In this document: one piece after another, positions 6,950 to 57,682 of the stretch
Layout: the number at the start of each line of letters is the position of its first letter
Numbering within the stretch: position 1 is the stretch's first letter
Origin: Hormiphora californensis
Lineage: Eukaryota > Animalia > Ctenophora
Reading direction: 5' to 3'
Assembly (NCBI GenBank): GCA_020137815.1
Contig: CM035350.1
Location: 10,292,001-10,356,000, forward strand
Length of the DNA stretch: 64,000 bases
The notes under the pieces: generated by a model
Seen by the model: only the letters and a program-made list of their open reading frames with translations
Told to the model about the DNA's origin: nothing
Databases searched by the model: none
Program-made: the position numbers and the translations under genes

Positions 6950-9900
6950 CTACTGTGATCGTTTCTTCTTGTGACGATCACAAAACGAAGCTATTCTCTG
7001 GCACGCCTCTCGGAGTAGATCCTCTGGTACCGTCAGGACAAGTCGGACGAAGTTAGGGATTCCAAATATCTGAGAATGAAAAAATCGCAATTGAAAATCA
7101 TTATGGAAGAAAAGGACCCTTATTTAAAGAGATTGATCTCAATTCAATAATAATAATAATAATAAACTTGGAAGAGACTTTCAAGTTGGAACCAGCGAAC
7201 CAACGAATAAAAGATCCTGCTCTATTGAATAAGACACCTACCCCGGCAGGGAGGGGGAAGACACTTTCCTCACTAATCAGGGTCTCTACAAACTTCATAT
7301 CATCAGTAATGTCCTCCAGCTCATCAATCTGTTATAGGGGATAGTAGGGGATAGGGGATAGTACTAGGGGATATAGGTCATATGCTGAGATAGTCAAGAA
7401 AACTATTGGTATATTCATCGATATATGGAGATTGGAGGAGATAAGGGGAGAAGGAAATCTGGCCGATGAAAAGTTTCATACTTCAATGCTAATTGGACCG
7501 GAAGGGTTACTGGGGGGAGGGAGGAGGGGTTCTCAACACTCTAGTACCTTGATCTGTACCATCATGTACATGGCTCCCTGGGGTTTGAAGGGCCGCAGCT
7601 GTGGAACTCCCTTTAGCTCGCTATACACAATCTCAGAAGCTTTCTGGGGATTGAAATGTGTGAGATCCCTAGAAGAAGTAGGTATTTGTTGTCGGAAAGT
7701 CATTCCACACACACACAATCCGACTTCTGAGTATTTAGATGATAACTTCTGAGTACTGAGATCATGACAAGTAATCTGACTAGAAAGTCAGAATCTTAGT
7801 ACTGAGAATATATGACCGGGATTGATTAATTTACCTTGAGTCTTGCTATTGTAGAGCTGTAAAACTCAGGGGGTGTTTCAGTGAGTATTCTGGGAATTGC
7901 AGCCTGGATTAGGGTGTTAGCTCCAATTATAACCTGACACAACTTCACCAGGCCCCCTCGGACCGCGGAGAGGCGGTTATTTCTGTCGTGTACTGTCAAC
8001 CATCCCACTCTCCATCCCGGTACTAACCACCTGTGTAATGGGGGGGGGGGGTGTAATGAGGTACTAACCACCTGTGTAATGGGAGGGGGTTGTAATGAGA
8101 TACCAACCACCTGTGTAATGGGGGGGGTTGTAATGAGATACTAACCACCTGTAATGGGAGGGGTTGTGATGAGATACTAACCACCGGTAATGGGGGGGGG
8201 GGTTGTGACCACCGGGGGAGGGAGAGAGATAGCTACTGTCACCACAACTATAATAACAACTGCACTTCTCAGTTTGAACTAACCTTTTAGCCAGTCCGCC
8301 AGCAGACAACACTGGTACATTTTTACTGAGTTCTCCAAAACTGTGGCTCTCTCCCTCAAATACCATTCCCTGGTAGATCTCGTCAGCAATCAGAGGCAAA
8401 CCATACTTCTCCGCCACTGATAATGGGGGTGTGGACGTGTGTTGAGGGGTCATTTGTATTCTAGTTGTCCATGATCTTTATAATGTACAATAGCTCGATC
8501 TAGCTACCTACGAAGTGTTATAGGCCCTATTTCGGCTTTGAAATTACTATTCCTAAATCATGCTTTCTAAGAAAGTACCCTTGTTTAATTGGTACTACCC
8601 GCATCCTCCATATCCTTAAATCGATAGTGTTTACGCAGTGAATACAGAGTGAATGCAGAGTGAATGCAGAATGAATGCAGAGTGAATGCAGAGCGAATGC
8701 AGAGCGAATGCAGAGTGAATGCAGAGCGAATGCAGAGTGAATGCAGAGTGAATGCAGAGTGGTTCCAGAGTGAATACGCAGTGAATGCAGAGCGAATACG
8801 CAATCATTGGTAATATCCTACCAGAACTAGAATGCCGTAAATACACAGTGATAAAAAATTGGATATTGTATGGTAAGTCACAAGCAAACAGGCATGAGGC
8901 CGGTAACGCAAACAAAAGGGAGAGGGAGATAGAGAGGGAGAGGGAGACAGAGAGAGGGAGATAGAGATAGAGATAGAGAGGGAGATAGAGAGGGAGATAG
9001 AGAGGGAGAGGGAGATATAGAGATAGAGATAGAGATAGAGATAGAGATAGAGATAGAGAGGGAGATAGAGAGGGAGAGGGAGATAGAGATAGAGAGAGGG
9101 AGATAGAGAGAGGGAGATAGAGAGAGGGAGATAGAGATAGAGATAGAGAGGGAGATAGAGATAGAGATAGAGATAGAGATAGAGAGGGAGAGGGAGAGGG
9201 AGATAGAGAGGGAGAGAGAGACAAAACCACTTTTTTCGGGTTGTAGCAACAATATCCAATTTTTTATCACTGCGTATTTACGGCATTCTAGTTCTGGTAT
9301 GATTGCGTATTCGCTCTGCATTCACTGCGTATTCACTGCGTATTCGCTCTGTATTCACTGCGTATTCACTCTGTATTCACTGCGTAAACAGTTCTGGTAG
9401 GATATCCCCAATGATTGCGTATTCACTCTGCATTCACTGCGTATTCACTCTGGAACCACTCTGCATTCACTCTGCATTCACTCTGCATTCGCTCTGCATT
9501 CACTCTGCATTCGCTCTGCATTCACTCTGCATTCACTCTGCATTCGCTCTGCATTCACTCTGCATTCGCTCTGTATTCACTGCGTAAACACTATCGATTT
9601 AAGGATATGGAGGATGCGGGTAGTACCGTTTAATTAACTTACAAGCAAGTATATCCATCTGGTGAGAGACGGAGAAGGCCGAGCCACAAGGGTTGCTAGG
9701 GTTGGTAACTAATATTGCAGCAGTGTTATCATCAATTAGAGACTCCAGTTCTTCCAAATCTATCTCCCAGTTCTTCTCAGGCTAGAGAATAGACAGGTAT
9801 CAGTAACGGCGACCGCGAGAAGATTCGATCTCATCAGGACCAGTGCACTGCAGTGGTAAATTATTAATTAAGACTCACAATCACGTTGTAGAATTTCACC

Positions 9901-55203: not shown

Positions 55204-57682
55204 CTCGGTACAAGGAACACAACCATTAGTGGAAACTCCTGTCAAAACTGGGTCAACTACACTAGTTACGAGTTAGTTGTTAGTTGGGGTGGGGTGGGGT
55301 GGGGTGGGGTGGAGGGGTGGGGTGGGTCAACTACACCAGTTACGAGTTAGTTTCAATGGGGTGGGGTGGGGTGGGGTGGTGGGGTGGGGTGGTGGGGTGG
55401 GTGGAGGGTCAACTACACCAGTTACGAGTTAGTTTCAATGGGGTGGGGTGGGGTGGAGAGGGGTGGGATGGGGGGATGGGGTCAACTACACCAGTTACGA
55501 GTTAGTTGTTAGTTGGGGTGGGGTGGAGGGGTGGGGTGGAGGGGTGGGGTGGGTGGGGGTGAGGGAACCCCCCCCCCCCTCTAACTACACCAGTTACGAG
55601 TTAGTTTCAATGGGGTGGGTGGGGTGGAGGAGGGGTGGGATGGAGGGATGGGGTCAACTACACCAGTTACGAGTTAGTTGTTAGTTGGGGTGGGGTGGAG
55701 GGGTGGGGTGGGGTGGGGTGGAGGGAACCCCCCCCCCCTCTCAACTACACCAGTTACGAGTTATTTCAATGGGGTGGGGTGGGGTGGGGTGGAGGAGGGT
55801 GGGATGGGGTCAACTACACAGTTATGAGTTAGTTGTTAGTCGACCACCCCCCCCCCTCTCAACTACACCAGTTACGAGTTAGTTGTTAGTCGACCCCCCC
55901 CTACACCAGTTACGAGTTAGTTGTTAGTCGACCCATCAAATAGTAATAACTAGACAACCCATCAGATAGAGGCATCTTATAGTGTTCCTTTATAAACCGG
56001 GTTGTCGAAGTTATCTGAATTTCCACTCCAGAGAGGGTATTTACGGAGTTGGTGATCACAATTACTGTAGAAACCTAGACTTTGCACTGGAAGTACCCTG
56101 GTGTTACATCAACAATGTCACACTCCTAAAGGAAAAGTGTTTCCCCTCAACCCCATGCAGTGAGTTAAATTCCTTCGGCCTTCTGATATAATTAATATTT
56201 TAATTAACCTAACTTGATTAATTAACCTAACTAGTTCAATCAACCTAACTTGATTAATTAACCTAACTAGTTCAATTAATTAACCTAACTTGTTCGATCA
56301 TTAACCTAACTTAATTAATTAACCTAACTTGTTCAATTAACCTAACTTGTTCAGCATGTTGGAGTGGGTCTCAGACCTCTTATCGGGGTTACAAGAATCA
56401 CACTGTATCGGGGATCACTTGCCAACCATGGTCCTCCCAATCACCTCAAGAGCATGACTATACCCCAGAGAAGTAAGCTAATTCCTCCATCCCCCCCCCC
56501 CTTAGTGATCAATCAAACAGTTGCATTATATTGTTGTAATTCAGTGATCAATCAAACAGCTGCATTATATTGTTGTGATTCAATCAAACTCCTCCATTTT
56601 GCGCCAGTGTAGGGGTGGCCACGTCACCAACCATTTCAACATTTCTCCCATTCTAGCTACCCGAATGAGGGCTTGGACTCAAACTACTGTAGAAATCCAA
56701 GTGGAAGCAAAGCGTGGTGTTACTCAGAAGACAAATCTGTAAGATGGGGCTATTGTGATCTCCCATCTTGTAACCTCGATATTGCCGGTAAGAGCCCAAT
56801 GAAAACAGCAAAGTGCTAATGTATTTGAGTCAAGACACCACTTCCTAATACCTAGAAAACTGTCGATACTATGCTGCGTACTTTTATCGTGGAAATATCA
56901 ACAAAAGCGAAGACGGGACCCAGTGCGAGAGTTATTGTCGGAGAGTTGTGGAGCCTGGGGATAGTTGGACAAAACCAATCTGTTACACAGATATTACCAA
57001 CACATCATCCCATCAAATATGTAGTCTCACAGACGTCTGCAACGACTTTACTTATCGTAAGCAATCTGTAACTTCAATTTACCTTGAACTACTCCGGAAA
57101 AATACTATATTTCAAGATTACTCTCTTACTAAAGAACACTTCGTTCACACAGTGTGCGGGGACGAGGAGGATTCTTATGCAACATACACTGGAAGTTACG
57201 CTGTCACGGAGACTGGGTGGGAGTGTAGAGACTGGTCTGATGTCCTGGATACCGCAACCCTGGCATTGTACCCCACTCTGGAGCACAACTACTGTAGAAA
57301 TGTTAATGGGTCGGAGCTCAATAAGACTAGAGCGTGGTGCTACTCTACCAACCCTGATGAAGAGTTCGAGTTCTGTTCCATACCGTCATGCTCTGACATA
57401 GGTAATATGCAAGAAATACATCTTTCTAAATCTTCATTGAGTCTGATTTCAGTTGGAAGTAACTCGTCCTATCTCCTGGAAACGTGGCAAACAGACATCA
57501 CGGATGGGGAAGTTACCACTGCTAACCTTACTTGTACTGCCACTATCACACTACTGAATCAAGAGCCCTTTGTTCATAAAGTTGAGGTGTCCATTGAACA
57601 GGTCCCTTCAGAAAGTAAGATTAAATTAATTGCAACATGTCGAACCACTTCATTCATCAGTGGAATTTGGTTGAAAATATAA
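55204..57682 (+). CDS. Multi-kringle protein (4 kringle-like domains), 5' end missing
   Basis: Exons give GTRNTTISGNSCQNW|..HNYCRNLD..PWCY, YRGYKNHTVSGITCQPW|..NYCRNPSGSKAWCY, YRGNINKSEDGTQCESYCR and YTGSYAVTETGWECRDW..HNYCRN..AWCY. The stop at 57682 is followed by AATAAA. Confidence 0.82.

What the first reader, a model, noticed from the sequence alone, without database searches (positions are those of the whole stretch)
8020..55930. Duplicated exon ends inside introns differ almost only at synonymous/third codon positions
Seen, counted by eye within the exon-derived part of the copies: RBM45 ATA/ATT and GAG/GAT; TAT TTA/TTG; 7TM GCG/GCA and ACT/ACA; GPCR GTA/GTC, ACG/ACC and TTT/TTC; kringle ACT/ACC and TAC/TAT. 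All ten are third-position changes and nine are synonymous. The exceptions I saw lie only at copy edges. Neutral intronic decay should hit all codon positions. Inference: the copies record versions that passed protein-level selection. They could be captured from the other allele by template switching at exon edges in a heterozygous genome, cycled through the functional slot by unequal crossover or conversion, or actually translated as alternatives. The GTC variant seen in intronic copies of GPCR copy A is the functional codon in GPCR copy B.
Basis: partly seen in the sequence, partly recalled or inferred. Interest (0 to 1): 0.88.

Follow-up and report, generated by a model that had tools for sequence, protein, structure and literature searches.

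The report
Intronic exon-end copies mirror allelic variation
Short copies of exon ends sit in tandem inside introns and differ from the working exon only at third codon positions, likely because they were copied recently from other versions (alleles) of the same gene in a highly variable animal rather than because they are translated.

Summary
A codon-blind scan of 94 modelled splice boundaries found 38 copies at 13. Variants lay at 9 of 110 third positions and 0 of 217 first/second positions (P about 5e-5); 7 of 9 are synonymous. The structures are known 'mirages' (exon-boundary minisatellites of amphioxus; human F7 VNTR).

The bias resembles ordinary allelic variation here: 25 of 30 displayed coding SNPs are synonymous third-position. 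At the one locus I could test (7TM), contig breaks point to polymorphism of the working exon at both variant sites, though the letters were not displayed. A published amphioxus mirage alignment shows the same cross-haplotype sharing (5 of 5 sites, by eye). Translation is unlikely: only 5 of 38 copy sites keep an open frame.

Best reading: fast-turnover arrays refilled by inter-allelic exchange. Caveats: small post-hoc sample; the bias fades when alignments are pushed past copy edges; the GPCR/kringle loci lie in a rearranged or misassembled stretch; no RNA test. The scan noted a similar silent-site pattern before, in a sea-urchin gene. My searches found no paper describing the bias.

The parts
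617..765 (-).
963..1209 (-). CNOT10-like exon 4 donor with two copies (40 and 43 nt exon-derived); one edge change TGC/TAC, second position
8019..8199 (-). Aminotransferase (TAT-like) acceptor array, 4 copies of 10-12 nt exon start; TTA/TTG at 8024 in one copy; edge change CCG/TCx; one copy has lost its AG
   Evidence: Pfam Aminotran_1_2 on the neighbouring exon, none on this exon
18215..18499 (+). RBM45-like exon 3 donor duplication, 144-nt unit, 54 nt exon-derived; ATA/ATT (18238) and GAG/GAT (18262, Glu to Asp)
   Evidence: RRM_1; relative P0001 keeps Ile and Glu at these places
19369..19416 (+). RBM45-like exon 5 acceptor copy, 11 nt exon-derived, identical
19456..20017 (+). RBM45-like exon 5 donor array, 104-nt unit, 5 copies of 35 nt exon end, all identical to the exon
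31994..32436 (+). Multi-pass membrane ('7TM') gene, first modelled exon, donor array with 9 copies: GCA-ACA in 3, GCA-ACT in 1, exon-type GCG-ACT in 5; both sites appear polymorphic in the working exon
   Evidence: frame rests on a six-exon open reading, no Pfam hit on the two exons tested
32536..32701 (+). 7TM second-exon acceptor with decayed copies; ATG/ATC at 32695 (third position, non-synonymous)
35694..35778 (+). 7TM fifth-exon donor duplication, 42-nt unit, 21 nt exon-derived, identical
40932..40986 (-). OFD1-like exon 9 donor copy, 6 nt exon-derived, identical (gene name recalled)
41576..41670 (-). OFD1-like exon 7 donor copy, 10 nt exon-derived, identical
43760..43830 (-). OFD1-like exon 2 donor, weak copy below the scan threshold (or a duplicated 15-nt micro-exon); carries a third- and a second-position change
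51858..52033 (-). GPCR copy A acceptor array, 3 copies; GTA/GTC (51869), ACG/ACC (51863), edge TTT/TTC (51860)
55140..55171 (-). GPCR copy B exon start carrying GTC, the variant in two of copy A's intronic copies; no array here
55249..55930 (+). Kringle exon donor array; 8 scored copies all ACC against exon ACT (55263), plus a weaker copy with TAC/TAT
   Evidence: Kringle Pfam on the next exon; frame open over four exons

Best explanation
These are exon-boundary minisatellites whose copies differ from the working exon only at third codon positions, likely because the copies are young and are refilled by recombination from the exon ends of other alleles (or a neighbouring paralog), whose coding differences selection has already filtered. 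Steps: (1) Shown: tandem units spanning a donor or acceptor at 13 of 94 boundaries. (2) From literature, not tested here: such duplications are tolerated because the first donor or last acceptor is used. (3) Shown: the species is highly polymorphic and its coding SNPs are mostly synonymous third-position. (4) Inferred: unequal crossover or SDSA-type conversion between homologues puts one allele's exon end into the array of another, faster than point mutation decays the copies. (5) Indirectly shown at one locus: the variant sites are polymorphic in the working exon.
For: Variants at 9 of 110 third, 0 of 217 first/second, and 17 of 290 intron-derived positions. Allelic coding SNPs among the 40 rows shown of 177: 25 of 30 synonymous third-position. 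Nine of nine third positions has probability 0.19 under that spectrum and 5e-5 under neutral decay. At the 7TM exon, exon-anchored contigs of sample S1 end at 32019 in both runs, and the reference continuation 31990-32036 has about half the depth (45 to 17; 176 to 97). The window alone would run unbroken to 32036; among single-base second alleles tried at 31960-32044, only changes at 32020 reproduce both pieces. In X5 (sample S2) the exon-anchored contig 31944-32016 has 3 unmatched letters starting at 32017. Array ends differ between haplotypes (tables 5c and 7). GTC is the paralog's codon. In the amphioxus BflGb6 alignment (PMC3087553 supplement 4, read by eye) the two exon haplotypes differ at 5 synonymous third positions, and at all 5 a copy carries the other haplotype's base. 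Inter-allelic exchange drives most human minisatellite mutation (PMC2599865 passages).
Against: The allele letters at 32017 and 32020 were not displayed, and depth calibration is rough (X3 depths here exceed its level). An unseen copy starting exactly at 31990 would give the same break, though not the depth drop. Only one of six variant loci was tested against other haplotypes. Two of nine third-position changes are non-synonymous, against 0 of 25 displayed allelic third-position SNPs, and the relative P0001 keeps Glu where the RBM45 copy has Asp. Seven of the 17 intron-part variants lie in kringle G-tracts and may be misregistration. The SNP rows shown are the tool's best-supported subset. 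The sample is small and was chosen after the pattern was seen.
Confidence: 0.68

Rival explanations
1. Two-way traffic: copies also convert or replace the working exon end, so copies with amino-acid changes are purged indirectly and the arrays act as a reservoir that raises synonymous polymorphism at exon ends.
For: The two S1 haplotypes give one unbroken contig over 154 nt of exon and part exactly at the copy-variant site 32020. Three site combinations occur in the window's exon and copies, and a fourth is implied by the S1 break.
Against: One-way capture explains the same data. The direction of transfer cannot be read from contigs, and only one locus was examined.
Confidence: 0.13
2. Ordinary duplication followed by synonymous change in the exon lineage and neutral decay in the copies, with small numbers and post-hoc choice exaggerating the bias.
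For: All 8 scored kringle copies share ACC against exon ACT, which one exon mutation explains. Two changes are non-synonymous. Significance fades with lax extension.
Against: Copies should then gather several times more changes than the exon, at all positions; observed 0 of 217. Even with half of the changes expected at third positions, P is 0.002.
Confidence: 0.1
3. The copies are translated through alternative splice-site use and are under direct protein selection.
For: 37 of 38 copies keep GT or AG. The RBM45 copy and four 7TM copies give an open in-frame extension. An earlier AI note read a sea-urchin case as once translated (not checked).
Against: 33 of 38 copy sites, and 14 of 17 variant-bearing ones, shift the frame or add a stop (lengths depend on homopolymers in a noisy assembly). 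Use would add G-rich spacer rather than replace the exon end. Mirages and F7 pseudo-sites are reported as silent.
Confidence: 0.06
4. Assembly artefact: two haplotypes of a heterozygous individual were written in tandem, so 'copies' are alleles.
For: The window has near-duplicates of 1.7 kb (99.8%) and 3.7 kb (96.8%), noisy stretches, and a kringle-GPCR gene in head-to-head pieces. This may apply to GPCR A versus B.
Against: Short-read contigs cross from the 7TM exon into copy 1, and from copy 1 into copy 2, with no other letters (X1 records 4 and 7, X3 record 11). The other sample also shows go-back joints with spacer letters. Two haplotypes cannot give 9 copies. S1 may be the source sample, so it checks the assembly, not generality.
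Confidence: 0.03

Closest known systems
'Mirage' minisatellites of amphioxus (Adh3, globins BflGb6/9, TnC, PGBD5); PMC3087553 section 16 and supplement 4, PMC3902484 passage; the original Adh3 paper was not held
   Same: Tandem units spanning a donor or acceptor, units of tens to about 150 nt, copy number differing between haplotypes, most copies keeping GT/AG. Their published alignment shows, by eye, the same third-position excess (about 16 of 22 distinct variants) and cross-haplotype sharing.
   Different: Here in a probably ctenophore genome, at 13 of 94 boundaries in one window. The section read does not mention codon position or allele capture and calls the generating mechanism unclear.
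Human F7 IVS7 37-bp VNTR (PMC1557585, abstract read)
   Same: The first unit spans the exon-intron boundary; downstream pseudo-donors are functional but normally silent.
   Different: Single locus; the abstract describes pseudo-sites identical in sequence and addresses splice choice, not copy variation.
Inter-allelic germline mutation at GC-rich human minisatellites (PMC2599865 passages; Jeffreys 1994 seen only as a reference)
   Same: Non-reciprocal transfer between alleles, with SDSA proposed, creates arrays of variant repeat units.
   Different: Those units are non-coding. Here part of the unit is a selected exon end, so the transfer leaves a codon signature.
Heterogeneous duplications that join two alleles (PMC6121789, search listing and start of abstract only)
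   Same: Duplicates begin life differing by allelic variation.
   Different: Whole expressed genes there; 6-54 nt untranslated exon ends here.

Membership tests
Mirage (exon-intron boundary minisatellite) | Tandem unit contains exon end, splice site and intron part | tested here: met
   38 copies at 13 of 94 boundaries; 0-1 in 20 shuffles
Mirage (exon-intron boundary minisatellite) | Occurs at both donors and acceptors; most copies keep GT/AG | tested here: met
   9 donor and 4 acceptor loci; 37 of 38 copies keep the dinucleotide
Mirage (exon-intron boundary minisatellite) | Array structure differs between haplotypes | tested here: met
   7TM array only: the array-end sequence follows different copy positions in X1, X3 and X5, and X6 leaves the reference after 32036 (table 7)
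Mirage (exon-intron boundary minisatellite) | Normal splicing; copies not used | not testable with these tools
   No RNA holder listed; only frame arithmetic
Mirage (exon-intron boundary minisatellite) | Somatic length instability | not testable with these tools
   Needs single-molecule data
Inter-allelic conversion minisatellite | Units carry variants of the other allele | tested here: inconclusive
   Both 7TM sites show allele signals but the letters were not displayed; RBM45 rows not shown
Inter-allelic conversion minisatellite | Germline mutants with polar, non-reciprocal transfer | not testable with these tools
   Needs gamete or pedigree typing
Tandem duplicated alternative or mutually exclusive exons | Copy is a whole exon with both splice sites and keeps the frame | tested here: not met
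   The scored copies hold 6-54 nt of exon and one matched splice site; 33 of 38 are out of frame or stopped

The most novel reading that the evidence does not exclude
Boundary minisatellites exchange sequence in both directions with the working exon across alleles. Intronic copies are then a standing archive of past and present exon alleles, kept free of amino-acid changes by indirect selection and feeding variants back into exon ends, at about one in seven splice sites of this genome, with the same signature in amphioxus and perhaps sea urchin.
Probability: 0.2. Interest if true: 0.72.

Novelty: new variant of a known kind. Interest (0 to 1): 0.5.

Why it matters
How mirages arise is described as unclear (PMC3087553). 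A codon signature turns each copy into a marker of its source: if copies match other alleles, these arrays grow by exchange between homologues rather than by slippage within one allele, and that can be counted genome-wide from one phased assembly. It also warns that a silent-site excess in an intronic exon copy is not evidence of translation in highly polymorphic species. Finally, it extends mirages, proposed as raw material for intron gain, to another animal lineage at high density.

Tried and rejected
No whole genome is held, so the genome-wide count was impossible.

First lay (15750-18950): only 40 of 177 difference rows were shown, none at 18238 or 18262, so the RBM45 sites are untested. 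X6 has no cover over the RBM45 copy bin, which is not used as evidence. The second-allele contig at 32020 was not among the laid pieces (46 pieces not shown; a filter drops records).

Protein search with the RBM45 exon gave one relative among 38 candidates and no same-species allele.

Lax alignment scoring was rejected as a measure because it runs into G-rich spacers; its results are reported. An exon-edge-specific mechanism is not needed, since intron-only tandem repeats are abundant.

Model faults: the TAT exon 7 acceptor and the CNOT10-like and METTL26-like frames are imperfect. The kringle exon 2 acceptor was corrected, and the CNOT10 exon 5 frame set by hand. None of these carries a counted variant.

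Literature: eight searches (listings only unless stated) showed no paper on codon-position bias or allele capture in such copies. The original mirage paper (PMC117041) was not held and may discuss it. The scan's index had nothing for this genome.
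Full report
Setting. The window is an intron-rich animal sequence with many tandem repeats. It looks like a noisy long-read assembly: 49650-51374 recurs at 52294-54017 (99.8%) and 55622-59249 at 60247-63838 (96.8%). The closest protein to the GPCR exon is P0002 (89% identity, EukProt id sb/3461060). I recall that id style as Pleurobrachia bachei gene models, so the organism is probably a ctenophore; no call names it. 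Pfam supports aminotransferase, RRM, Kringle and 7tm_1 on 5 of the 11 pieces scanned. No whole genome was available.

Checking the observation. I modelled 52 exons of 10 gene pieces by coordinates. For 94 boundaries with GT or AG, I scanned the adjacent intron (up to 2.5 kb) with an ungapped extension that ignores codons. Thirteen boundaries have copies, 38 in all; 20 shuffles gave at most one hit. Counting each site once, the exon-derived parts cover 110 third and 217 first/second positions. Nine third positions and no first/second position vary; seven of nine are synonymous. P is about 5e-5, and 0.0014 without the GPCR and kringle loci.

TTT/TTC is an edge change, and TAC/TAT lies in a copy below the threshold. 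With laxer scoring, second- and first-position edge changes enter (10 versus 2 at mismatch -1.5), and the signal fades once alignments run into the G-rich spacers (P 0.03-0.10). A weak OFD1-like copy has a second-position change. The bias inside clearly duplicated sequence is therefore real, on a small sample chosen after the pattern was seen.

What the pattern resembles. The intron-derived parts of the same copies vary at 17 of 290 positions, like third positions (P 0.5) and unlike first/second positions (P 7e-5); 7 of those 17 are in kringle G-tracts. Neutral decay predicts one rate for all three classes. Differences between alleles predict what is seen. Laying contigs of four DNA runs from two samples on 15750-18950 gave 55-112 differing places per run in 3.2 kb. 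Of the 40 rows shown out of 177, 30 fall in coding sequence, and 25 of these are synonymous third-position changes. Nine of nine third positions has probability 0.19 under that spectrum. The synonymous share is also alike (7 of 9 versus 25 of 30), although two non-synonymous third-position changes are more than the allelic sample showed (0 of 25).

Direct test at one locus. On 31880-32135, contigs anchored in exon-unique sequence end at 32019 in both S1 runs, and the reference path 31990-32036 continues at roughly half depth (45.1 to 16.7; 176.1 to 96.5). A k=31 graph of the window alone runs to 32036, and of all single-base second alleles between 31960 and 32044 only those at 32020, the ACT/ACA site, reproduce both pieces. 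A hidden copy starting exactly at 31990 would give the same break but no depth drop. In run X5 of the other sample, the exon contig matches 31944-32016 and has three unmatched letters from 32017, the GCG/GCA site. The tool does not list differences this close to contig ends, so the letters are unseen. Both tested sites thus appear polymorphic in the working exon, against a background of a few per cent per third position (13 listed S1 sites in about 336 codons of the single-exon gene, a lower bound). The same call shows that copies 1 and 2 are real in short reads and that array ends differ between haplotypes. S1 may be the source of the assembly. The RBM45 sites could not be read (table cut).

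GPCR and kringle loci. GTC in copy A's intronic units is copy B's codon. A and B differ at 29 of 168 codons, 25 of them synonymous, in patches, which suggests exchange between paralogs or divergent alleles. In the relative P0002, the kringle exons and the GPCR exons are one 1317-aa protein; in the window they lie head to head on opposite strands. Copy A lacks about 640 nt with a frame change, and copy B has two frame breaks. Whether this is real rearrangement or misassembly is open, so these loci carry less weight.

Translation. If a copy's splice site were used, 33 of 38 would shift the frame or add a stop, including 14 of 17 copies that carry a variant; lengths depend on homopolymer runs. 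The five open ones would add G-rich spacer rather than swap an exon end. No RNA test was possible.

Comparison with the literature. Tandem repeats across exon-intron boundaries are the amphioxus 'mirages' (PMC3087553 section 16 read whole; PMC3902484 passage), reported not to disturb splicing and of unclear origin. The human F7 VNTR is the same anatomy, with the most upstream donor chosen (PMC1557585 abstract). In the published BflGb6 alignment (supplement 4, counted by eye), about 16 of 22 distinct copy variants of haplotype 1 are third-position. The two exon haplotypes differ at five synonymous third positions, and at all five some copy carries the other haplotype's base. The section I read does not remark on this. 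Inter-allelic, conversion-like exchange is the stated main mutation route of human minisatellites (PMC2599865 passages). A related ctenophore has about 2% SNP heterozygosity (PMC8527503 passages). Eight searches found no paper describing the codon bias; the original mirage paper was not available. An earlier AI note records a similar silent-only copy in a sea urchin and reads it as once translated (not checked).

Mechanism. Short tandem duplications are common in these introns. Those that span a boundary are probably tolerated because one splice site wins (literature). In a species whose alleles differ at several per cent of silent sites, recombination between misaligned homologues would place one allele's exon end in the array of another. 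If turnover outpaces point mutation (7 of 13 loci have no variant), copies differ from the neighbouring exon mainly by already-filtered allelic changes. The anatomy, the rates and the polymorphism are shown. Allele matching is shown indirectly at one locus. The exchange mechanism, its direction and silent splicing are inferred.

Verdict. A real pattern in a known structure, with a likely population-genetic cause and a codon signature I could not find in print. New variant of a known kind; interest 0.5.

Noticed in passing
window 50280-57680: Kringle exons (+) and LDLa-GPCR exons (-) that form one protein in relative P0002 lie head to head; copy A has a roughly 640-nt deletion at a 2-nt microhomology and copy B has two frame breaks. 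Inversion, pseudogenes or misjoin.
   Followed up: partly
window 43086-43100 and 43775-43790 (-): A 15-nt AG...GT-flanked stretch in an OFD1-like intron, in phase, occurs twice on either side of an inserted element: a possible micro-exon or decayed donor copy.
   Followed up: partly
window 44851-49190 (+): Apparently intact two-ORF LINE-like element (open frames of 470 and 984 codons); class recalled, not searched.
   Followed up: no
window 36940-38900 and 8585-9633: Elements with long terminal inverted repeats built of internal tandem units (21/144 nt; 11 nt) inside introns, foldback-like.
   Followed up: no
window 33417-35461: Nearly perfect 41-nt x 50 intronic array, 99% identical.
   Followed up: no
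window 3238-4962 (+): 51-nt x 34 array inside a long open frame, possibly a coding repeat (17-aa unit).
   Followed up: no
window 58030-59250 and 62640-64000: 31/63-nt satellite; the stretch 55622-59249 recurs at 60247-63838, probably a false duplication.
   Followed up: partly
window 21100-25100: Long RBM45-like intron with a very noisy stretch; residues about 308-411 of relative P0001 have no match in the window.
   Followed up: no
window 32036, run X6: One haplotype leaves the reference 7 nt after the donor into sequence resembling, by eye, a repeat end seen at window 10770-10800: a probable element insertion.
   Followed up: no
PMC3087553 supplement 4 (amphioxus BflGb6): The published mirage alignment shows the same third-position excess and cross-haplotype sharing, unremarked in the section read.
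   Followed up: partly
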